A stretch of DNA of 11,386 nt from a virus: UHGV virus genome UHGV-1619847, one strand, 5' to 3'. Positions 1 to 11,386 of this stretch are shown in pieces (positions within the stretch are counted from its first letter, which is position 1; every line of letters begins with the position of its first letter). Below the pieces are notes generated by a model. It did no database searches. It was not told where the DNA came from and saw only the letters and a program-made list of their open reading frames with translations. The position numbers and the translations under genes were made by a program.

Positions 1-265
1 TCAATTATTACCGTCTCCGAAGTGGAATCGACAAGATAACCGCGCAGGTTAACTATCTGCAGGAATACATCAGGACGCAATGCCTTCGATGATAGCGATA
101 ATTTTACTCATCATCCTTCACATCTGGCTCTGTAGACAGGGTGGTGATCACTTCTGGAGTAAATCCAGATTAAACATCTCATTGCTGATGCTTGATATTG
201 AGCATCTTGCGCGCGGTAAGGGGCTGCGTTGAGATAAGAGCCAGTCATTACAAATACCAGGATTT

Positions 266-292
266 AGCCTCGTATTCGCGGGGCTTTTTATT
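266..292 (+). terminator. Putative rho-independent terminator for rightward transcription
   Basis: Stem AGCCTCG / CGGGGCT (7 bp including one G.U pair) around loop TATTCG at 266-285, followed directly by TTTTATT (286-292). Hand-folded, not computed. Confidence 0.45.
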
Positions 293-301
293 GTCATTAC
301 A

Positions 302-327
302 AAAGCCACTCCCTACAGAGTGGCTTT
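302..327 (-). terminator. Putative hairpin/terminator for leftward transcription from the AT-rich cassette
   Basis: Perfect 10-bp inverted repeat AAAGCCACTC ... GAGTGGCTTT with 6-nt loop; read on the minus strand the stem is followed by UUUUGU. Sits back-to-back with the 266-292 hairpin. Confidence 0.35.
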
Positions 328-546
328 GATAATGGTTTATACCCTACACGGGATAACTTAACTGATATCCCTTTTAAAGGATAAAGGTATTCAAGCCTGA
401 CACATCATGCGCTGTATCGTCGCCGTATTCCCGTATTAACAGAGACCGTAGCCCGACGGGGAACTCCTTCTGCGCGAGTGTGTGGGAATAATCAAAAACG
501 ATGCACACCGGGGTTACCGGGTACACATATTTCATCATGCCAGCGA

Positions 547-575
547 GTCCGGTTCTGGCACGGAAGAAACCGGAC
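547..575 (-). other. Stem-loop immediately 3' of the unknown-protein gene (no U-tract)
   Basis: 8-bp inverted repeat GTCCGGTT (547-554) / AACCGGAC (568-575) with a 13-nt loop, 9 nt beyond the stop codon at 584-586. No T-run on either side, so not a classical intrinsic terminator. Confidence 0.25.
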
Positions 576-583
576 GTTATGAT

Positions 584-994
584 TTAGTGCGGAAATATTT
601 GTGTAGTGTTCTGAATGTTCTCAGTAAAGAGTAATGAATTATCAAAGGTATAGTAATACCTTTTGTTTTCGTGGATATTTGTAATCCATCTGAAAACCCC
701 TGCTGTAGCAAGATTTTTCCTGTATTCGTAAAATGATAACTCTCCTGATTTGAATCCTTTTAAGGTGGCTTCTATAAGGCATTTATTTTTTGAAAATCTT
801 ACATTTACAACCTTACCCTGTCCTTTTATTAAAACCGTATTATCGTTTTCAAGAACAAGATGAATATTCTCTGTGGCTAAATAGTAAATGTAATGTGAGA
901 CATTGTGACGTTTTAGTTCAGAATAAAACCAGTGATAGTTTAAATTATTTCGCACTTTATCGAATATTTGTTTAAAAATGGCAACCTGAGCCAT
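584..994 (-). CDS. Hypothetical protein, no recognisable family (candidate effector of the AT-rich cassette)
   Basis: Minus-strand ORF in a roughly 33% G+C region, where a 136-141 codon open frame is unlikely by chance. The ATG at 994 is preceded by GGAAGG with 7-nt spacing (rc of 995-1012 = CACATGGAAGGTACTACA). The longer ORF-track start at 1009 has no Shine-Dalgarno (preceded by CCCCTCATATCAC), so 994 is preferred. Protein is rich in Tyr/Phe/Asn/Lys; I see no known catalytic motif. Confidence 0.5.
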
Positions 995-1050
995 TGTAGT
1001 ACCTTCCATGTGATATGAGGGGCGTAGTCTGCACGATTATCTAAATTGCT

Positions 1051-1284
1051 TCAATCTGGTCTGATCTGTTTTCTGAGCAATTCAGTAATGTCACTCTTTT
1101 CTTTGTTTGCTTCAGGAGAAACTCTTTTTTCTGAGCACAGTCTCCGGCGGCAGGCTTCAATGACCCAGGCTGAGAAATTCCCGGACCCTTTTTGCTCAAG
1201 AGCGATGTTAATTTGTTCAATCATTTGGTTAGGAAAGCGGATGTTGCGGGTTGTTGTTCTGCGGGTTCTGTTCTTCGTTGACAT
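1051..1284 (-). CDS. Ribbon-helix-helix (Arc/Mnt/CopG-like) DNA-binding protein, 77 aa
   Basis: Basic N-terminal tail (KNRTRRTTTR) followed by NIRFPNQMIEQINIALEQKGSGNFSAWVIEACRRRL, which lines up by eye with the P22 Arc core (FNLRWPREVLDLVRKVAEENGRSVNSEIYQRVMESF): beta-strand R-F/W-P, helix, G-x-S/N turn, helix. GGGA lies about 8 nt upstream of the ATG (rc of 1282-1284). Same strand as and 56 nt upstream of the 584-994 ORF. Confidence 0.55.
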   Translation of the reverse strand: MSTKNRTRRTTTRNIRFPNQMIEQINIALEQKGSGNFSAWVIEACRRRLCSEKRVSPEANKEKSDITELLRKQIRPD

Positions 1285-1432
1285 GAGGTTGTCCCGTATT
1301 CAGTGTCGCTGATTTGTATTGTCTGAAGTTGTTTTTACATTAAGTTGATGCAGATCAATTAATATGATACCTGCGTCATAATTGATTATTTGACGTGGTT
1401 TGATGGCGTAGATGCACGTTGTGACATGCAGA

Positions 1433-1447
1433 TGATAATTATTATCA
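1433..1447. promoter_or_regulatory. cosQ: cosQ-region palindrome TGATAAT-T-ATTATCA
   Basis: Perfect 7-1-7 palindrome about 37 bp upstream of the cohesive-end sequence. Lambda has the equivalent TGATAAT-C-ATTATCA in its right-end cosQ region (from memory). Exact cosQ boundaries are not determinable here. Confidence 0.4.
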
Positions 1448-1483
1448 TTTTGCGGGTCCTTTCCGGCGATCCGACAGGTTACG

Positions 1484-1495
1484 GGGCGGCGACCT
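1484..1495. other. cosN: cosN cohesive-end sequence (12-nt 5' overhang GGGCGGCGACCT); mature left genome end begins at 1484
   Basis: Exact lambda cohesive-end 12-mer GGGCGGCGACCT, preceded by the lambda right-end sequence ...CCGACAGGTTACG and followed by CTCGCGGGTTTTCGCTATTTATGAAAATTTTCCGG as in lambda's left end. Confidence 0.85.
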
Positions 1496-1529
1496 CGCGG
1501 GTTTTCGCTATTTATGAAAATTTTCCGGT

Positions 1530-1650
1530 TTAAGGCGTTTCCGTTCTTCTTCGTCGTAACTTAATGTTTTTATTTAAAATACCCCCTGAAAAGAAAGGAA
1601 ACGACAGGTGCTGAAAACGAGCTTTTGGGCCTCTGTCGTTTCCTTTCTCT
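1530..1650 (+). promoter_or_regulatory. cosB: cosB terminase (gpNu1) binding region with R3, IHF-site spacer, R2 and R1
   Basis: R3-like CGTTTCCGTTCT at 1536-1547; AT-rich spacer (TAACTTAATGTTTTTATTTAAAATACC) where lambda has IHF site I1; R2 GAAAGGAAACGACAG (1593-1607) and R1 CTGTCGTTTCCTTTC (1633-1647) form a perfect 15-bp inverted repeat. Lies directly upstream of nu1. Confidence 0.7.
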
Positions 1651-1672
1651 GTTTTTGGCCGTGGAATGAACA

Positions 1673-2192
1673 ATGGAAGTCAACAAAAAGCAGCTGGCTG
1701 ACATTTTCGGTGCGAGTATCCGTACCATTCAGAACTGGCAGGAACAGGGAATGCCCGTTCTGCGAGGCGGTGGCAAGGGTAATGAGGTGCTTTATGACTC
1801 TGCCGCCGTTATAAAATGGTATGCCGAAAGGGATGCTGAAATTGAGAACGAAAAGCTGCGCCGGGAAGTTGAAGAACTGCGGCAGGCCAGCGAGACAGAT
1901 CTCCAGCCAGGGACTATTGAGTACGAACGCCATCGACTTACGCGTGCGCAGGCCGACGCACAGGAACTGAAGAATGCCAGAGACTCAGCTGAAGTGGTGG
2001 AAACCGCATTCTGTACTTTCGTGCTGTCGCGGATCGCAGGTGAAATTGCCAGTATTCTCGACGGGATCCCCCTGTCGGTGCAGCGGCGTTTTCCGGAACT
2101 GGAAAACCGACATGTTGATTTCCTGAAACGGGATATCATCAAAGCCATGAACAAAGCAGCCGCGCTGGATGAACTGATACCGGGGTTGCTGA

Positions 2193-2218
<26 letters not shown>
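1673..2218 (+). CDS. nu1: Terminase small subunit gpNu1
   Basis: 181-aa product MEVNKKQLADIFGASIRTIQNWQEQGMPVLRGG... matches lambda gpNu1 (N-terminal winged HTH). Directly downstream of cosB; overlaps A by 26 nt as in lambda. Confidence 0.95.
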
Positions 2219-5899
<3,681 letters not shown>

Positions 5900-5919
<20 letters not shown>

Positions 5920-7219
5920 TCTCCCGCATATTGCCAGCATGGCCTTTAATGAGCCGCTGATGCTTGAACCCGCCTATGCGCGGGTTTTCTTTTGTGCGCT
6001 TGCAGGCCAGCTTGGGATCAGCCGCCTGACGGATGCGGTGTCCGGCGACAGCCTGACTGCCCAGGAGGCACTCGCGACGCTGGCATTATCCGGTGATGAT
6101 GACGGACCACGACAGGCCCGCAGTTATCAGGTCATGAACGGCATCGCCGTGCTGCCGGTGTCCGGCACGCTGGTCAGCCGGACGCGGGCGCTGCAGCCGT
6201 ATTCGGGGATGACCGGTTACAACGGCATTATCGCCCGTCTGCAACAGGCTGCCAGCGATCCGATGGTGGACGGCATTCTGCTCGATATGGACACGCCCGG
6301 CGGGATGGTGGCGGGGGCATTTGACTGCGCTGACATCATCGCCCGTGTGCGTGACATAAAGCCGGTATGGGCGCTGGCCAATGACATGAACTGCAGCGCA
6401 GGTCAGCTGCTTGCCAGTGCCGCCTCCCGGCGTCTGGTCACGCAGACCGCCCGGACAGGCTCCATCGGCGTCATGATGGCTCACAGTAATTACGGTGCTG
6501 CGCTGGAGAAACAGGGCGTGGAAATCACGCTGATTTACAGCGGCAGCCATAAGGTGGATGGCAACCCCTACAGCCATCTACCGGATGATGTCCGGGAAAC
6601 ACTGCAGTCCCGGATGGATGCAACCCGCCGGATGTTTGCACAGAAGGTGTCGGCATATACCGGCCTGTCCGTGCAGGCTGTGCTGGATACCGAGGCTGCA
6701 GTGTACAGCGGTCAGGAGGCCATTGATGCCGGACTGGCTGATGAACTTGTTAACAGTACCGATGCGATCACCATCATGCGTGATGCACTGGATGCACGTA
6801 AATCCCGTCTCTCAGGAGGGCGAATGACCAAAGAGACTCAATCAACAACTGTTTCAGCCACTGCTTCGCAGGCTGACGTTACTGGCGTGGTGCCAGCGAT
6901 GGAGGGCGAAAACGCCAGCGCGGCGCAGCCGGACGTGAACGCGCAGATCAACGCTGCGGTTGCGGCAGAAAACAGCCGCATTATGGGGATCCTCAACTGT
7001 GAGGAGGCTCACGGACGCGAAGAACAGGCCCGCGTGCTGGCAGAAACCCCCGGTATGACCGTGGAAACGGCCCGCCGCATTCTGGCCGCAGCACCACAGA
7101 GTGCACAGGCGCGCAGTGATACTGCGCTGGATCGTCTGATGCAGGGGGCACCGGCACCGCTGGCTGCAGGTAACCCGGCATCTGATGCCGTTAACGATTT
7201 GCTGAACACACCAGTGTAA
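5900..7219 (+). CDS. C: Head maturation protease gpC (S49-type prohead protease)
   Basis: GTG start at 5900 gives MTAELRNLPHIASMAFNEPLMLEP..., the lambda gpC N-terminus, and 439 aa, the lambda gpC length. The ORF-track start at 5765 would add 45 residues lying wholly inside B. AGGAGGAGAAGAG precedes the GTG. Confidence 0.88.
6614..7219 (+). CDS. nu3: Scaffolding protein gpNu3, in-frame nested within the 3' third of C
   Basis: In-frame ATG at 6614 (ATG GAT GCA = MDATRRMFAQKV...) gives 201 aa sharing the C stop, the same nested arrangement and length as lambda nu3. Start assigned by homology of arrangement; the RBS is weak. Confidence 0.6.
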   Translation: MDATRRMFAQKVSAYTGLSVQAVLDTEAAVYSGQEAIDAGLADELVNSTDAITIMRDALDARKSRLSGGRMTKETQSTTVSATASQADVTGVVPAMEGENASAAQPDVNAQINAAVAAENSRIMGILNCEEAHGREEQARVLAETPGMTVETARRILAAAPQSAQARSDTALDRLMQGAPAPLAAGNPASDAVNDLLNTPV

Positions 7220-7228
7220 GGGATGTTT

Positions 7229-7561
7229 ATGACGAGCAAAGAAACCTTTACCCATTACCAGCCGCTGGGCAACAGTGACCCGGCTCATACCGCAACCGCG
7301 CCCGGCGGATTGAGTGCGAAAGCGCCTGCAATGACCCCGCTGATGCTGGACACATCCACCCGTAAGCTGGTTGCGTGGGATGGCACCACCGACGGTGCTG
7401 CCGTTGGCATTCTTGCGGTTGCTGCTGACCAGACCAGCACCACGCTGACGTTCTACAAGTCCGGCACGTTCCGTTATGAGGATGTGCTCTGGCCGGAGGC
7501 TGCCAGCGACGAGACGAAAAAACGGACCGCGTTTGCCGGAACGGCAATCAGCATCGTTTAA
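7229..7561 (+). CDS. D: Head decoration protein gpD
   Basis: 110-aa product [52 protein letters not shown]... matches lambda gpD. The ORF-track start at 7223 (MFMTSKE) is 2 codons upstream; 7229 gives the lambda N-terminus. Confidence 0.9.
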
Positions 7562-7581
7562 CTTTACCCTTCATCACTAAA

Positions 7582-7603
7582 GGCCGCCTGTGCGGCTTTT
7601 TTT
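7582..7603 (+). terminator. Intrinsic-terminator-like hairpin between D and E
   Basis: GGCCGC-CTGT-GCGGCT stem-loop (6 bp, one G.U; flanking AA/TT could extend it) followed by a 7-T run (7597-7603), 20 nt after the D stop and 14 nt before the E start. Confidence 0.45.
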
Positions 7604-7616
7604 ACGGGATTTTTTT

Positions 7617-8642
7617 ATGTCGATGTACACAACCGCCCAGCTGCTGGCGGCAAATGAGCAGAAATTTAAGTTTGATCCGCTGTTTCTGCGTCTCTTTTTC
7701 CGTGAGAGCTATCCCTTCACCACGGAGAAAGTCTATCTCTCACAAATTCCGGGACTGGTAAACATGGCGCTGTACGTTTCGCCGATTGTTTCCGGTGAGG
7801 TTATCCGTTCCCGTGGCGGCTCCACCTCTGAATTTACGCCGGGATATGTCAAGCCGAAGCATGAAGTGAATCCGCAGATGACCCTGCGTCGCCTGCCGGA
7901 TGAAGATCCGCAGAATCTGGCGGACCCGGCTTACCGCCGCCGTCGCATCATCATGCAGAACATGCGTGACGAAGAGCTGGCCATTGCTCAGGTCGAAGAG
8001 ATGCAGGCAGTTTCTGCCGTGCTTAAGGGCAAATACACCATGACCGGTGAAGCCTTTGATCCGGTTGAGGTGGATATGGGCCGCAGTGCGGCGAACAACA
8101 TCACACAGTCCGGCGACACGGAGTGGAGCAAGCGTGACAAGTCCACGTATGACCCGACCGACGATATCGAAGCCTACGCGCTGAACGCCAGCGGCGTGGT
8201 GAATATCATCGTGTTTGATCCGAAAGGCTGGGCGCTGTTCCGTTCCTTCAAAGCCGTCAGGGAGAAGCTGGATACCCGTCGCGGCTCTCATTCCGAGCTG
8301 GAGACAGCGGTGAAAGACCTGGGCAAAGCGGTGTCCTATAAGGGAATGTATGGCGATGTGGCCATCGTCGTGTATTCCGGACAGTACGTGGAAAACGGCG
8401 TCAAAAAGAACTTCCTGCCGGACAACACGATGGTGCTGGGTAACACTCATGCACGCGGTCTGCGCACCTATGGCTGCATTCAGGATGCGGATGCACAGCG
8501 CGAAGGCATTAACGCCTCTGCCCGTTACCCGAAAAACTGGGTGACCACCGGCGATCCGGCGCGTGAGTTCACCATGATTCAGTCAGCACCGCTGATGCTG
8601 CTGGCTGACCCTGATGAGTTCGTGTCCGTACAACTGGCGTAA
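7617..8642 (+). CDS. E: Major capsid protein gpE (HK97-fold)
   Basis: 341-aa product MSMYTTAQLLAANEQKFKFDPLFLRLFFRESYPFTTEKVYLSQIPGLVNMALYVSPIVSGEVIRSRGG... matches lambda gpE. The ORF-track start at 7590 lies inside the upstream hairpin and is rejected. Confidence 0.93.
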   Translation: MSMYTTAQLLAANEQKFKFDPLFLRLFFRESYPFTTEKVYLSQIPGLVNMALYVSPIVSGEVIRSRGGSTSEFTPGYVKPKHEVNPQMTLRRLPDEDPQNLADPAYRRRRIIMQNMRDEELAIAQVEEMQAVSAVLKGKYTMTGEAFDPVEVDMGRSAANNITQSGDTEWSKRDKSTYDPTDDIEAYALNASGVVNIIVFDPKGWALFRSFKAVREKLDTRRGSHSELETAVKDLGKAVSYKGMYGDVAIVVYSGQYVENGVKKNFLPDNTMVLGNTHARGLRTYGCIQDADAQREGINASARYPKNWVTTGDPAREFTMIQSAPLMLLADPDEFVSVQLA

Positions 8643-8645
8643 TCG

Positions 8646-8672
8646 TGGCCCTTCGGGGCCATTTTCTCTCTG
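8646..8672 (+). other. Stem-loop with UUCG tetraloop and U-rich tail between E and FI
   Basis: TGGCCC-TTCG-GGGCCA (6-bp GC-rich stem, UUCG loop) at 8646-8661, followed by TTTTCTCTCTG, then the FI RBS GGAGGAG (8674-8680) and ATG at 8684. Confidence 0.45.
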
Positions 8673-8683
8673 TGGAGGAGTTC

Positions 8684-9070
8684 ATGACGAAAGATGAACT
8701 GATTGCCCGTCTTCAGGAGCTGGGTGAGCAACTGAACCGTGATGTCAGCCTGACGGGAACGAAAGAAGAACTGGCGCTCCGTGTGGCAGAGCTGGAAGAG
8801 GAGCTTGATGACACTGCCGATCAGGATACCCCTATCAGCCCGGAAAATGCGCTGACCGGACATGAAAATGAGGTTGTATCAGCGCAGCCGGATACCGTGA
8901 CTGATACGGCTGATCTGGTCACGGTTGTGGCACTGGTGACGCTGCATACTGATGCACTTCACGCCACGCGGGATGACACTGTGGCATTTGTGCTGCCGGG
9001 AACGGCGTTCCGTGTCTCTGCCGGTGTGGCAGCTGAAATGACAGAGCGCGGCCTGGCCAGAATGCAATAA
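8684..9070 (+). CDS. FI: DNA-packaging/head assembly protein gpFI
   Basis: MTKDELIARLQELGEQLNRDVSLTGTKEELALRVAELEEELDD... with RBS GGAGGAG 4 nt upstream. 128 aa, four codons shorter than my recollection of lambda gpFI (132 aa). Confidence 0.88.
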   Translation: MTKDELIARLQELGEQLNRDVSLTGTKEELALRVAELEEELDDTADQDTPISPENALTGHENEVVSAQPDTVTDTADLVTVVALVTLHTDALHATRDDTVAFVLPGTAFRVSAGVAAEMTERGLARMQ

Positions 9071-9081
9071 CGGGAGGCGCT

Positions 9082-9435
9082 GTGGCTGATTTCGATAACC
9101 TGTTCGATGCTGCCATTGCCCGCGCCGATGAAACGATACGCGGGTACATGGGAACGTCAGCCACCATGACATCCGGTGAGCAGTCCGGCGCAGTAATACG
9201 TGGTGTTTTTGATGACCCTGAAAATATCAGCTATGCCGGACAGGGCGTGCGCGTTGAAGGCTCCAGCCCGTCCCTGTTTGTCCGGACTGATGATGTGCGG
9301 CAACTGCGGCGTGGAGACACGCTGACCATCGGTGAGGAAAACTTCTGGATAGACCGGGTTTCGCCGGATGATGGTGGAAGCTGTCATCTCTGGCTTGGGC
9401 GGGGCGTACCGCCTGCCGTTAACCGTCGCCGCTGA
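9082..9435 (+). CDS. FII: Head-tail connector protein gpFII
   Basis: GTG start at 9082 preceded by GGGAGG. 117-aa product MADFDNLFDAAIARADETIRGYMGTSATMTSGEQSGAVIRGVFDDPENISYAGQG... matches lambda gpFII. Confidence 0.9.
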   Translation: MADFDNLFDAAIARADETIRGYMGTSATMTSGEQSGAVIRGVFDDPENISYAGQGVRVEGSSPSLFVRTDDVRQLRRGDTLTIGEENFWIDRVSPDDGGSCHLWLGRGVPPAVNRRR

Positions 9436-9446
9436 AAGGGGGATGT

Positions 9447-10025
9447 ATGGCCATAAAAGGTCTTGAGCAGGCCGTTGAAAACCTCAGCCGTATCAGCAAA
9501 ACGGCGGTGCCTGGTGCCGCCGCAATGGCCATTAACCGCGTTGCTTCATCCGCGATATCGCAGTCGGCGTCACAGGTTGCCCGTGAGACAAAGGTACGCC
9601 GGAAACTGGTAAAGGAAAGGGCCAGGCTGAAAAGGGCCACGGTCAAAAATCCGCAGGCCAGAATCAAAGTTAACCGGGGGGATTTGCCCGTAATCAAGCT
9701 GGGTAATGCGCGGGTTGTCCTTTCGCGCCGCAGGCGTCGTAAAAAGGGGCAGCGTTCATCCCTGAAAGGTGGCGGCAGCGTGCTTGTGGTGGGAAACCGT
9801 CGTATTCCCGGCGCGTTTATTCAGCAACTGAAAAATGGCCGCTGGCATGTCATGCAGCGTGTGGCCGGGAAAAACCGTTACCCCATTGATGTGGTGAAAA
9901 TCCCGATGGCGGTGCCGCTGACCACGGCGTTTAAACAGAATATTGAACGGATACGGCGTGAACGTCTTCCGAAAGAGCTGGGCTATGCGCTGCAGCATCA
10001 ACTGAGAATGGTAATAAAGCGATGA
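9447..10025 (+). CDS. Z: Tail completion protein gpZ
   Basis: 192-aa product MAIKGLEQAVENLSRISKTAVPGAAAMAINRVASSAISQ... preceded by AAGGGGGA. Same length as lambda gpZ; ATGA overlap with U. Confidence 0.9.
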   Translation: MAIKGLEQAVENLSRISKTAVPGAAAMAINRVASSAISQSASQVARETKVRRKLVKERARLKRATVKNPQARIKVNRGDLPVIKLGNARVVLSRRRRRKKGQRSSLKGGGSVLVVGNRRIPGAFIQQLKNGRWHVMQRVAGKNRYPIDVVKIPMAVPLTTAFKQNIERIRRERLPKELGYALQHQLRMVIKR

Positions 10026-10417
10026 AACATACTGAACTCCGTGCAGCCGTACTGGATGCACTGGAGAAGCATGACACCGGGGCGACGCTTTTTGATGGTC
10101 GCCCCGCTGTTTTTGATGAGGAAGATTTTCCGGCAATTGCCGTTTATCTCACCGGCGCTGAATACACGGGCGAAGAGCTGGACAGCGATACCTGGCAGGC
10201 GGAGCTGCATATTGAAGTTTTCCTGCCTGCTCAGGTGCCGGATTCAGAGCTGGATGCGTGGATGGAGTCCCGGATTTATCCGGTGATGAGCGATATCCCG
10301 GCACTGTCAGATTTGATCACCAGTATGGTGGTCAGTGGCTATGACTACCGGCGCGACGATGATGCGGGCCTGTGGAGTTCAGCCGATCTGACTTATGTCA
10401 TTACCTATGAAATGTGA
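10022..10417 (+). CDS. U: Tail terminator protein gpU
   Basis: 131-aa product [67 protein letters not shown]... matches lambda gpU. Confidence 0.92.
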
Positions 10418-10424
10418 GGACGCT

Positions 10425-11165
10425 ATGCCTGTACCAAATCCTACAATGCCGGTGAAAGGTGCCGGGACCACCCTGTGGGTTTATAAGGGGAGCGGTGACC
10501 CTTATGCGAATCCGCTTTCAGACGTTGACTGGTCGCGTCTGGCAAAAGTTAAAGACCTGACGCCCGGCGAACTGACCGCTGAGTCCTATGACGACAGCTA
10601 TCTCGATGATAAAGATGCAGACTGGACTGCGACCGGGCAGGGGCAGAAATCTGCCGGAGATACCAGCTTCACGCTGGCGTGGATGCCCGGAGAGCAGGGG
10701 CAGCAGGCGCTGCTGGCGTGGTTTAATGAAGGTGATACCCGTGCCTATAAAATCCGCTTCCCGAACGGCACGGTCGATGTGTTCCGTGGCTGGGTCAGCA
10801 GTATCGGTAAGGCGGTGACGGCGAAGGAAGTGATCACCCGCACGGTGAAGGTCACCAATGTGGGCCGTCCGTCGATGGCAGAAGATCACAGCACGGTCAC
10901 AGCGGCAACCGGCATGACCGTGACGCCTGCCAGCACCTCGGTGGTGAAAGGGCAGAGCACCACGCTGACCGTGGCATTCCAGCCGGAAGGCGCAACCGAC
11001 AAGAGCTTCCGTGCGGTGTCTGCGGATAAAACAAAAGCCACCGTGTCGGTCAGTGGTATGACCATCACCGTGAACGGCGTTGCTGCAGGCAAGGTCAACA
11101 TTCCGGTCGTATCCGGTAATGGTGAGTTTGCTGCGGTTGCAGAAATCACCGTCACCGCCAGTTAA
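10425..11165 (+). CDS. V: Major tail tube protein gpV with C-terminal Ig-like (Big_2-type) domain
   Basis: ATG at 10425 preceded by GAGGA gives [31 protein letters not shown]..., 246 aa as in lambda gpV. C-terminal roughly 80 residues ([34 protein letters not shown]...ITVTAS) have Ig-like strand periodicity. The ORF-track start at 10395 lies inside U. Confidence 0.92.
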
Positions 11166-11180
11166 TCCGGAGAGTCAGCG

Positions 11181-11386
11181 ATGTTCCTGAAAACCGAATC
11201 ATTTGAACATAACGGTGTGACCGTCACGCTTTCTGAACTGTCAGCCCTGCAGCGTATTGAGCATCTCGCCCTGATGAAACGGCAGGCAGAACAGGCGGAG
11301 TCAGACAGCAACCGGAAGTTTACTGTGGAAGACGCCATCAGAACCGGCGCTTTTCTGGTGGCGATGTCCCTGTGGCATAACCATCC
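11181..11386 (+). CDS. G: Tail assembly chaperone gpG, 5' partial (runs off the window)
   Basis: ATG at 11181 preceded by GGAGAG; MFLKTESFEHNGVTVTLSELSALQRIEHLALMKRQAEQAESDSNRKFTVEDAIRTGAFLVAMSLWHNH... matches the lambda gpG N-terminus. The G/GT frameshift site is downstream of the window. Confidence 0.85.
   Translation, partial: MFLKTESFEHNGVTVTLSELSALQRIEHLALMKRQAEQAESDSNRKFTVEDAIRTGAFLVAMSLWHNH

What the first reader, a model, noticed from the sequence alone, without database searches (positions are those of the whole stretch)
584..1009. Unassignable 136-141 aa protein with ambiguous start, the candidate effector of the cassette
The long open frame in AT-rich DNA argues for a real gene. 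Two in-frame ATGs are 5 codons apart (1009 and 994) and only the second has a Shine-Dalgarno (GGAAGG, 7-nt spacer). The product ([61 protein letters not shown]...) has no signal peptide, no obvious transmembrane segment and no motif I recognise (no Walker, HEPN Rx4-6H, PIN or Doc/Fic signature), so it is plausibly cytoplasmic.
Basis: seen in the sequence. Interest (0 to 1): 0.65.

Follow-up and report, generated by a model that had tools for sequence, protein, structure and literature searches.

The report
Known YbcV/YdfO (DUF1398) prophage accessory gene
The ORF is a real gene, but it is the YbcV/YdfO-type DUF1398 gene that phage lambda, E. coli K-12 and about half of all E. coli genomes also carry; its structure is solved, its function is still unknown, and nothing here supports a toxin paired with the neighbouring small regulator.

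Summary

The true start is the second ATG (window 994, 136 aa). In lambda and ybcV a 1-nt indel puts the upstream ATG out of frame, while the SD and second ATG are kept. K-12 curation and PGAP also use 136 aa.

The gene is AT-rich (31% vs 57% GC), under purifying selection, antisense to the late operon and about 490 bp from cosN. That is a classic moron position.

The "cassette effector" idea is not supported:
- DUF1398 genes occur without the RHH gene, and the RHH gene occurs in 155 phage records against 43 for DUF1398.
- A mosaic joint lies between the two genes.
- Lambda and DLP12 carry a truncated, displaced RHH gene next to an intact DUF1398 gene.
- No toxin homology was found.

The "head protein" and "envelope protein" database labels are also unsupported.

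Verdict: ordinary and already known, with function still unknown. Most likely it is a non-enzymatic cytoplasmic binding protein expressed from the prophage.

The parts
584..994 (-). DUF1398 (YbcV/YdfO-type) coding sequence, 136 aa, stop included
995..1009 (-). Five-codon in-frame upstream extension (MEGTT). It is most likely untranslated leader that holds the ribosome-binding site.
   Evidence: In lambda/DE3 and K-12 ybcV the same ATG lies 16 nt before the conserved start, so it is out of frame. Here and in ydfO it lies 15 nt before. The spacer bases vary freely while the flanks are conserved.
1002..1007 (-). Shine-Dalgarno GGAAGG, 7 nt before the ATG at 994
   Evidence: Read from the sequence. 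Conserved in the window, ydfO, ybcV and lambda.
1054..1070 (-). AACAGATCAGACCAGAT, the counterpart of the PdhR gSELEX boxes reported upstream of K-12 ydfO and ybcV. It lies in the last codons of the RHH gene.
   Evidence: Alignment with Qin and DLP12. Boxes AAcaGGTcagACCAgaT and AtcTGGTctgACCtcTT, and a 10-fold drop of ybcV mRNA in a pdhR mutant, are reported in PMC7660256. Binding at this allele is inferred, because one half-site reads GAT instead of GGT.
1051..1284 (-). Neighbouring YlcI/YnfO (DUF3950) gene, 77 aa, a probable ribbon-helix-helix regulator
   Evidence: Pfam PF13132 E=2.5e-21 and NCBIfam YlcI_YnfO_N. Weak match to the HicB-like C-terminal domain. Predicted helices at 18-30, 37-51 and 57-74, at low confidence. 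No solved homologue.
302..327 (-). Strong hairpin (AAAGCCACUCU-GUAG-GGGAGUGGCUUU) with a partial U tract. It is a candidate terminator for leftward transcripts.
   Evidence: RNA fold -32.9 kcal/mol, z=-5.1 against shuffles. The consensus terminator scan did not list it, so its function is inferred.
1484..1495 (+). cosN, GGGCGGCGACCT. The gene therefore sits at the extreme right end of the packaged genome.
   Evidence: Exact match. A cos feature is annotated at the equivalent place in phage DE3.
1673..2218 (+). Nu1 small terminase gene (context). It starts the rightward late structural operon, which runs opposite to the finding.
   Evidence: Pfam Phage_Nu1 E=4e-101.

Best explanation
This is the YbcV/YdfO-type DUF1398 gene of a lambda-like prophage. 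It is translated from the ATG at 994 into a 136-aa, 16.3-kDa, basic, soluble cytoplasmic protein.

Shown:
- Family membership.
- The fold: two tandem helix-helix-three-strand units forming a pseudo-dimeric sheet-plus-helices domain, matching the solved YdfO structure.
- Purifying selection.
- AT-rich composition.
- Leftward orientation, between the lysis genes and cos.
- A patchy presence among related phages.

Inferred: it is an accessory ('moron') gene, meaning one that serves the lysogen rather than virion production.
- It has its own ribosome-binding site.
- It probably has its own regulatory region in the ~80 nt upstream. That stretch is kept even where the RHH gene has been broken away.
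- Homologues are controlled by host factors (PdhR, Hha/YdgT-type silencing, strong stress induction).

Most likely mode of action (inferred, weakest step): it works by binding a macromolecule, either protein or nucleic acid, rather than by catalysis. No polar catalytic-type residue is invariant across the family, and the conserved positions are mostly aromatic, Gly or Ala.

The upstream RHH protein is a separate, more widely distributed regulator that travels with the cos/terminase block. It is not a dedicated partner.
For: Identity:
- Pfam DUF1398 and 2HH8.
- All 13 diverse homologues match PF07166.
- Same gene in K-12 (ybcV, ydfO, ycgX) and in lambda as lambdap78.

Start site: the frame-breaking indel and the 136-aa curated annotations.

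Accessory status:
- GC is 31% against 57% for the head genes, and dN/dS is 0.21-0.37.
- It lies on the strand opposite to Nu1-A-...-V.
- Lambdap78 knock-down leaves plaque formation intact, EOP 1.9 and 1.3 (PMC10695390).
- It is present in 43 phage records, while the RHH gene is in 155.
- Homologues stand alone in chromosomal islets.

Expression of homologues from prophages:
- ybcV mRNA is PdhR-dependent (PMC7660256).
- ydfO is induced 116-fold by an ionic liquid (PMC4077768).
- ycgX is de-repressed in an hha/ydgT mutant (PMC3686432).

Independent unit:
- About 80 nt of upstream homology is retained in DLP12 and lambda despite a ~650-bp insertion.
- The mosaic joint lies at the ORF start.

Non-enzymatic: the only invariant or near-invariant positions are L27, Y35, T41, N43, G84, A96, G99, W103 and Y114.
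Against: - No function has been shown for any member. A 2025 K-12 study could draw no inference for ycgX (PMC12356324), and only 5 held papers mention DUF1398.
- No consensus sigma-70 promoter was found on the minus strand, so independent transcription is unproven.
- In about 95 of the related loci the RHH gene lies directly upstream on the same strand, so co-transcription and regulation by the RHH protein remain possible.
- Binding rather than catalysis rests only on the absence of conserved catalytic residues.
- Structure searches gave no informative neighbour, and afdb50 was unavailable.
Confidence: 0.6

Rival explanations
1. Type II toxin-antitoxin-like cassette. The RHH protein (YnfO/YlcI) is the antitoxin and repressor, and the DUF1398 protein is the toxin or effector.
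For: - The gene order is RHH first, then the larger gene, on the same strand with a 56-nt gap.
- This adjacency is kept in about 95 related prophage loci.
- The RHH protein has a weak HicB-like antitoxin DNA-binding-domain match.
- The ybcV ASKA clone gave a glycogen-deficient phenotype in the same screen list as hokA and yoeB (PMC2853380).
Against: - DUF1398 genes lack any RHH neighbour in K-12 ycgX, in 20 Enterobacteriaceae chromosomal loci and in two metagenomic loci. Six lambdoid loci also gave no RHH match, although those were checked by tblastn alone.
- The RHH gene occurs without DUF1398 in more than 100 phage records, for example BP-4795.
- In lambda and DLP12 the RHH protein is cut at about residue 55 and displaced 687 nt, yet ybcV and p78 stay intact with dN/dS 0.12.
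- The RHH protein is 95-99% identical across alleles while DUF1398 drops to 75%, with a sharp joint between them. There is no co-divergence.
- There is no match to any toxin, PADLOC or PDB toxin fold.
- YdfO was produced in E. coli alone for NMR (2HH8; this is inference).
- In K-12 TraDIS, true antitoxins score as essential, but here it is ydfO that is insertion-free, and ynfO is not listed (PMC5821084).
- An AF2 model of a natural YnfO-YdfO fusion shows no confident docking. This is a weak test.
Confidence: 0.07
2. Virion structural protein, the 'head protein' of PHROG 413, or 'envelope protein' as in the old lambda annotation.
For: phrog_413 is labelled 'head protein', E=1e-89. Phage records carry 'head protein' or 'putative envelope protein'. 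The gene is adjacent to the packaging genes.
Against: - It lies on the strand opposite to the late operon and has a foreign GC content.
- It is dispensable for lambda plaque formation.
- It is absent from most related phages that share the same head genes or RHH gene.
- Homologues are stand-alone chromosomal genes.
- It has no signal peptide or membrane segment.
- The 177-aa 'envelope' ORF of lambda is an over-extension upstream of the conserved start.
Confidence: 0.03
3. A specific kind of accessory gene: an anti-phage (superinfection exclusion or abortive infection) or anti-defence factor carried in the Rz-cos moron slot.
For: It sits in the variable slot that holds bor, ant and other cargo in related phages. 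It is AT-rich and patchily distributed. Loss of ydfO was listed in one phage-resistant APEC mutant (PMC8711792; this is anecdotal).
Against: There is no PADLOC match (best E=0.025 to Csx23). There is no partner genes or enzymatic domain. Chromosomal homologues sit among stress and biofilm regulators rather than in defence islands. No experimental report was found.
Confidence: 0.15

Closest known systems
E. coli K-12 YdfO (Qin prophage; PDB 2HH8, NESG target ER251)
   Different: It is a different allele. Identity falls to 64-66% in the central third (residues ~50-82), and the DNA downstream is unrelated. The 2HH8 construct began at the upstream MEG... start, which is probably not the native one.
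Phage lambda lambdap78 and K-12 YbcV (DLP12)
   Same: 76-78% identical, in the same position and orientation between the lysis genes and cos, with the same SD and start.
   Different: In lambda and DLP12 the RHH gene is truncated (residues 1-55) and pushed 687 nt away by an insert carrying ybcW/lambdap79, and bor lies downstream. The window has a full 77-aa RHH gene 56 nt upstream and no bor. Lambda's 177-aa annotation is an over-extended ORF.
K-12 YcgX and stand-alone enterobacterial DUF1398 genes
   Same: Same Pfam family and the same conserved motifs: YY..F..TGN, AGVF(K/R)W and R.YY.
   Different: They are 33-46% identical. They are chromosomal, with no RHH or phage genes nearby: next to bluR/iraM, yeeE-yeeD/gapA, sopE, or GGDEF and csp genes.
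Type II toxin-antitoxin modules with RHH antitoxins (e.g. RelBE, ParDE, CcdAB; the HicB C-terminal domain)
   Same: A small RHH gene lies first, followed by a ~130-aa gene on the same strand, on a mobile element.
   Different: Co-occurrence is not conserved, there is no toxin homology and no co-divergence, and the RHH tail is dispensable in lambda and DLP12 (see the membership test).
Lambda moron genes (bor, lom)
   Same: Foreign base composition, orientation or placement that breaks the late operon, dispensable for lytic growth, and variably present.
   Different: Bor and Lom are envelope proteins with known lysogen phenotypes and mapped promoters. This product is cytoplasmic, and neither a promoter nor a phenotype is known.

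Membership tests
DUF1398 (PF07166) / YdfO-like | Score above the Pfam gathering threshold over the whole domain | tested here: met
   147 bits against a cut-off of 22, profile positions 1-119 of 119.
DUF1398 (PF07166) / YdfO-like | YdfO fold: a duplicated helix-helix-three-strand unit | tested here: met
DUF1398 (PF07166) / YdfO-like | Family-conserved positions are present | tested here: met
   L27, Y35, T41, N43, G84, A96, G99, W103 and Y114 are all present.
Type II toxin-antitoxin system (RHH antitoxin + toxin) | Two adjacent co-oriented genes, antitoxin first, with a short gap | tested here: met
   The RHH stop is at 1051 and the DUF1398 start at 994, on the same strand.
Type II toxin-antitoxin system (RHH antitoxin + toxin) | The partners co-occur and are inherited together | tested here: not met
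   DUF1398 occurs without the RHH gene. The RHH gene is in 155 phage records against 43 for DUF1398. A mosaic joint lies between them. The RHH gene is truncated and displaced in lambda and DLP12.
Type II toxin-antitoxin system (RHH antitoxin + toxin) | The second gene belongs to, or folds like, a known toxin family | tested here: not met
Type II toxin-antitoxin system (RHH antitoxin + toxin) | Growth inhibition by the toxin, neutralised by direct binding of the antitoxin | not testable with these tools
   Only indirect evidence exists. YdfO was produced alone for NMR. The ybcV ASKA clone was viable enough to be screened. The AF2 fusion model gave no confident contact (no PAE available).
Phage head / structural protein (label of phrog_413) | Encoded within, and co-oriented with, the late structural operon | tested here: not met
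   It is on the minus strand, left of cosN, whereas Nu1 to V are on the plus strand.
Phage head / structural protein (label of phrog_413) | Required for production of infectious particles | tested here: not met
   From the literature on the lambda homologue: CRISPRi knock-down gave EOP 1.9 and 1.3, scored non-essential (PMC10695390).
Phage head / structural protein (label of phrog_413) | Physically present in virions | not testable with these tools
   No virion proteomics could be consulted.
Prophage moron / accessory gene | Base composition unlike that of the surrounding phage genes | tested here: met
   31.4% GC against 56.8% for window 1673-11386.
Prophage moron / accessory gene | Present or absent among otherwise related phages, and dispensable | tested here: met
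Prophage moron / accessory gene | Its own promoter and terminator, and expression in the lysogen | tested here: inconclusive
   A hairpin at 302-327 is plausible as a terminator. No consensus promoter was found on the minus strand. Transcripts of the K-12 homologues are detected and regulated, but nothing was measured for this allele.

The most novel reading that the evidence does not exclude
DUF1398 proteins, including lambda p78, could be a family of small cytoplasmic modulators carried by prophages and AT-rich islets. They would bind RNA or single-stranded DNA, or a host signalling protein, through the Tyr/Arg-rich open face of their pseudo-dimeric beta-sheet, and would alter host stress physiology in the lysogen. 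That would make p78/YbcV/YdfO an unrecognised lysogenic-conversion function of lambda, with the cos-linked RHH protein tuning its expression.

The evidence here does not exclude this. The protein has pI 9.4 and 16% aromatic residues. Homologues sit beside csp genes (Qin, Kluyvera) and beside connector or anti-adaptor genes (ycgX near iraM and ymgAB).
Probability: 0.12. Interest if true: 0.5.

Novelty: already known. Interest (0 to 1): 0.13.

Why it matters
It matters little as a discovery. The gene is in lambda, is present three times in K-12, and occurs in about half of complete E. coli genomes. It has had a Pfam entry and a solved structure since 2006.

The useful outcomes are corrective:
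1. The native start is the second ATG, giving 136 aa. The 141-aa and 177-aa models, and the 2HH8 construct, carry non-native N-termini.
2. The labels 'head protein' (PHROGs/Pharokka) and 'envelope protein' are unsupported and are being propagated.
3. The RHH neighbour is a separate, cos-linked gene, not an antitoxin for this protein.
4. A citation in the literature that credits YdfO with oxidative-stress protection confuses it with YfdO.

The family remains a genuine function-unknown item of the E. coli 'y-ome' and of lambda's last uncharacterised ORFs.

Tried and rejected
- PADLOC defence models gave only a chance-level Csx23 hit, E=0.025.
- NCBIfam gave nothing for the protein.
- PDB sequence searches with the single protein and with the A2 profile found only 2HH8.
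- Foldseek against BFVD found no hit at E<=1e-3.
- afdb50 was not installed.
- Rfam on window 1-1750 gave only sub-threshold chance hits.
- The consensus promoter scan found nothing on the minus strand.
- An AF2 model of a natural YnfO-YdfO read-through fusion (P0014) was used to look for docking. The RHH part had pLDDT 31-53, so the result is uninformative.
- An alignment spanning all distant homologues was too divergent for the locus scan. A distant-subgroup alignment worked.
- HEPN was rejected. The R-x4-6-H strings are present but unconserved, and the fold is wrong.
- 'YdfO protects against oxidative stress' was rejected. Wang 2010 names YfdK, YfdO and YfdS, not YdfO.
- The 54-aa ORF at 374-538 was rejected as a conserved gene, because its lambda counterpart is split across two frames.
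- The lambda ribosome-profiling paper was not held, and the paper cap stopped further reading.

Full report
**Setting.** The window is a lambda-like phage or prophage read across its cos junction.
- On the plus strand it holds the end of Rz (about 1-92) and a small conserved ORF (80-232).
- After cosN (GGGCGGCGACCT, 1484-1495) come Nu1 (1673-2218), the large terminase gpA (2193-4118), and ORFs in the lambda order that PGAP or Pharokka annotate as portal, S49 protease, decoration protein and major capsid protein in near-identical loci.
- The finding and its upstream neighbour lie on the minus strand between the lysis genes and cos. That places them at the extreme right end of the packaged genome, antisense to late transcription.

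**Observation.** The gene is real.
- dN/dS against ydfO, ybcV and lambda p78 is 0.21-0.37.
- The >=99% identical allele is in 1063 of 5426 complete E. coli genomes, and megablast-level homologues are in 2717.
- There is no membrane segment (maximum KD19 0.39). The protein has pI 9.4 and a mass of 16.25 kDa.
They are unconserved and the fold is alpha/beta, so this does not matter.

**Identity.** The protein is not unassignable.
- It matches Pfam DUF1398 (PF07166) at E=3e-43 across the whole profile.
- It matches E. coli YdfO, whose NMR structure is PDB 2HH8, at E=1.4e-69.
- PGAP annotates the same CDS as 'DUF1398 domain-containing protein' WP_000079508.1.
- K-12 has three paralogues: ybcV in DLP12, ydfO in Qin, and ycgX next to bluR.
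- Phage lambda's own lambdap78 is a homologue at the same position.
- Nothing else in the PDB or BFVD resembles it meaningfully, so the fold is an orphan and gives no functional lead.

**Start codon.** The four loci differ in how far the upstream ATG lies from the conserved start.

| Locus | Distance from upstream ATG to conserved ATG | In frame? |
|---|---|---|
| Window | 15 nt | yes |
| K-12 ydfO | 15 nt | yes |
| Lambda/DE3 | 16 nt | no |
| K-12 ybcV | 16 nt | no |

CACATGGAAGG and ATGGCTCAGGT are conserved in all four, while the bases between them vary freely. That is the behaviour of an SD-start spacer, not of coding sequence. Curated K-12 annotation (NP_415090.2, NP_416067.2) and PGAP both give 136 aa. 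The start is therefore 994. The 141-aa models, lambda's 177-aa 'envelope protein' and the 2HH8 construct (MEGLSM...) are over-extended.

**Is it the effector of a cassette with the RHH protein?** The neighbour (1051-1284) is a YlcI/YnfO DUF3950 protein and plausibly a ribbon-helix-helix protein. Five tests go against an obligate pair.
1. **DUF1398 occurs without the RHH gene.** This holds for K-12 ycgX, for 20 chromosomal loci in Kluyvera, Klebsiella, Pseudocitrobacter, Raoultella and Salmonella with ordinary neighbours such as yeeE/yeeD-gapA, sopE, GGDEF and csp genes, and for two metagenomic loci. Six lambdoid loci also gave no RHH match, although those were checked by tblastn alone.
2. **The RHH gene occurs without DUF1398.** tblastn finds the RHH gene in 155 phage records and DUF1398 in 43. 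In Stx phage BP-4795 the RHH gene sits between Rz and HNH-TerS-TerL with no DUF1398 gene.
3. **There is a mosaic joint.** Against Qin, identity is 96-100% from Nu1 through cos and the RHH gene down to about position 1000. It then falls to 64-92% inside the DUF1398 ORF and disappears below 580. The RHH protein stays 95-99% identical while DUF1398 alleles differ by 25%. The RHH gene therefore travels with the cos/terminase block.
4. **Lambda and DLP12 break the pair.** There, RHH codons from about 56 onward are replaced by ~650 bp carrying ybcW/lambdap79. The remnant is 687 nt away, yet ybcV and p78 remain intact, and only ~80 nt of upstream homology is kept.
5. **There is no toxin or defence homology**.

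Indirect points agree. YdfO was produced alone for NMR. The ybcV ASKA clone was screenable. In K-12 TraDIS the true antitoxins higA, hipB and relB score as essential, whereas here ydfO is the insertion-free gene and ynfO is not listed. An AF2 model of a natural YnfO-YdfO fusion gave no confident contact, but that is a weak test.

**Database labels.** 'Head protein' comes from phrog_413, and 'envelope protein' comes from the old lambda annotation. Neither fits.
- The gene is antisense to the late operon and has foreign base composition (31% against 57% GC).
- The protein has no export signal.
- The gene is absent from most relatives.
- Its lambda homologue is dispensable for plaque formation (EOP 1.9 and 1.3; PMC10695390).

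**Most likely role.** The anatomy is that of a moron: AT-rich, in the variable Rz-cos slot that holds bor or ant in relatives, with its own SD, a retained ~80-nt upstream region and a strong downstream hairpin at 302-327 (z=-5.1).
- That upstream region includes the counterpart (1054-1070) of the PdhR gSELEX boxes of ydfO and ybcV.
- ybcV mRNA falls 10-fold in a pdhR mutant (PMC7660256).
- ydfO is induced up to 116-fold by an ionic liquid (PMC4077768).
- ycgX is de-repressed in an hha/ydgT mutant (PMC3686432).

Across homologues down to 21% identity, the invariant and near-invariant positions are aromatic, Gly, Ala, Thr and Asn, with no catalytic-type set. I therefore favour a small cytoplasmic binding protein that acts in the lysogen. 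This last step is inference.

No function is reported anywhere in the held literature. Only five papers mention DUF1398, and a 2025 K-12 study found no consistent inference for ycgX. One published claim, that YdfO overexpression protects against oxidative stress, is a mis-citation. The source paper names YfdK, YfdO and YfdS of CPS-53 and never mentions ydfO.

**Verdict.** Interest is low. The residual value lies in the corrected start, the corrected labels, and the separation of the RHH gene from this gene.

Noticed in passing
window 1051-1284 (-); L002 3272-3436 (-); L226 2501-2728: The YlcI/YnfO RHH gene is a conserved element of its own, placed between the lysis genes and the packaging genes in many lambdoid phages. 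It appears with lambda-type Nu1/A and with HNH-TerS-TerL in Stx phages, 155 phage records in all. Lambda/DE3 carries an unannotated truncated copy (residues 1-55, 96% identical). Its linkage to cos and terminase rather than to DUF1398 hints at a role of its own.
   Followed up: partly
protein P0014 (233 aa; Qin-type loci such as L085 4757-5458): A read-through fusion of YnfO and YdfO (stop TGA to TGG, '...[26 protein letters not shown]...') stands for 761 member sequences. It is possible only in Qin-type alleles, which have one extra C in the spacer. In this window the two ORFs are in different frames.
   Followed up: partly
window 1432-1448: A perfect 8-1-8 palindrome, ATGATAAT-A-ATTATCAT, lies 36-52 nt left of cosN and about 150 nt upstream of the RHH start. 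It overlaps the only strong promoter-like hit, which is on the plus strand (GTGACA-16-TATCAT, 1421-1448). It could be a cos accessory site or an RHH operator. Identity to Qin dips to 84% here, in an otherwise 96-100% identical block.
   Followed up: no
window 1054-1070: This is the counterpart of the PdhR gSELEX boxes reported for ydfO and ybcV, with one half-site changed (GGT to GAT). A conserved GATAAT lies 12 nt downstream, at 1036-1041. Together they may be the gene's own activator-dependent promoter.
   Followed up: partly
literature (PMC4077768 citing PMC3105296): The statement that YdfO overexpression increases oxidative-stress resistance is a gene-name mix-up with YfdO of prophage CPS-53.
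   Followed up: yes
window 80-232 (+) and 374-538 (-): A 50-aa ORF after Rz matches phrog_11822 (E=6e-38) and is annotated by PGAP as hypothetical. The 54-aa minus-strand ORF downstream of the DUF1398 gene has only DNA-level conservation and is frame-broken in lambda, so it is probably not a gene.
   Followed up: partly
K-12 ydfO (L085 5048-5458): ydfO is listed as 'essential only by TraDIS' (no insertions), although the whole Qin prophage can be deleted. This is probably an artefact of insertion bias or of paralogue read-mapping rather than true essentiality.
   Followed up: no
phage record MW057783.1 (hit H85): A record named Campylobacter phage CJLB-4 (48,361 bp) matches the query exactly as lambda does: 76.3% identity, same score, and the gene lies about 1 kb from the right end of the record as in lambda. 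That looks like lambda DNA in the record.
   Followed up: no
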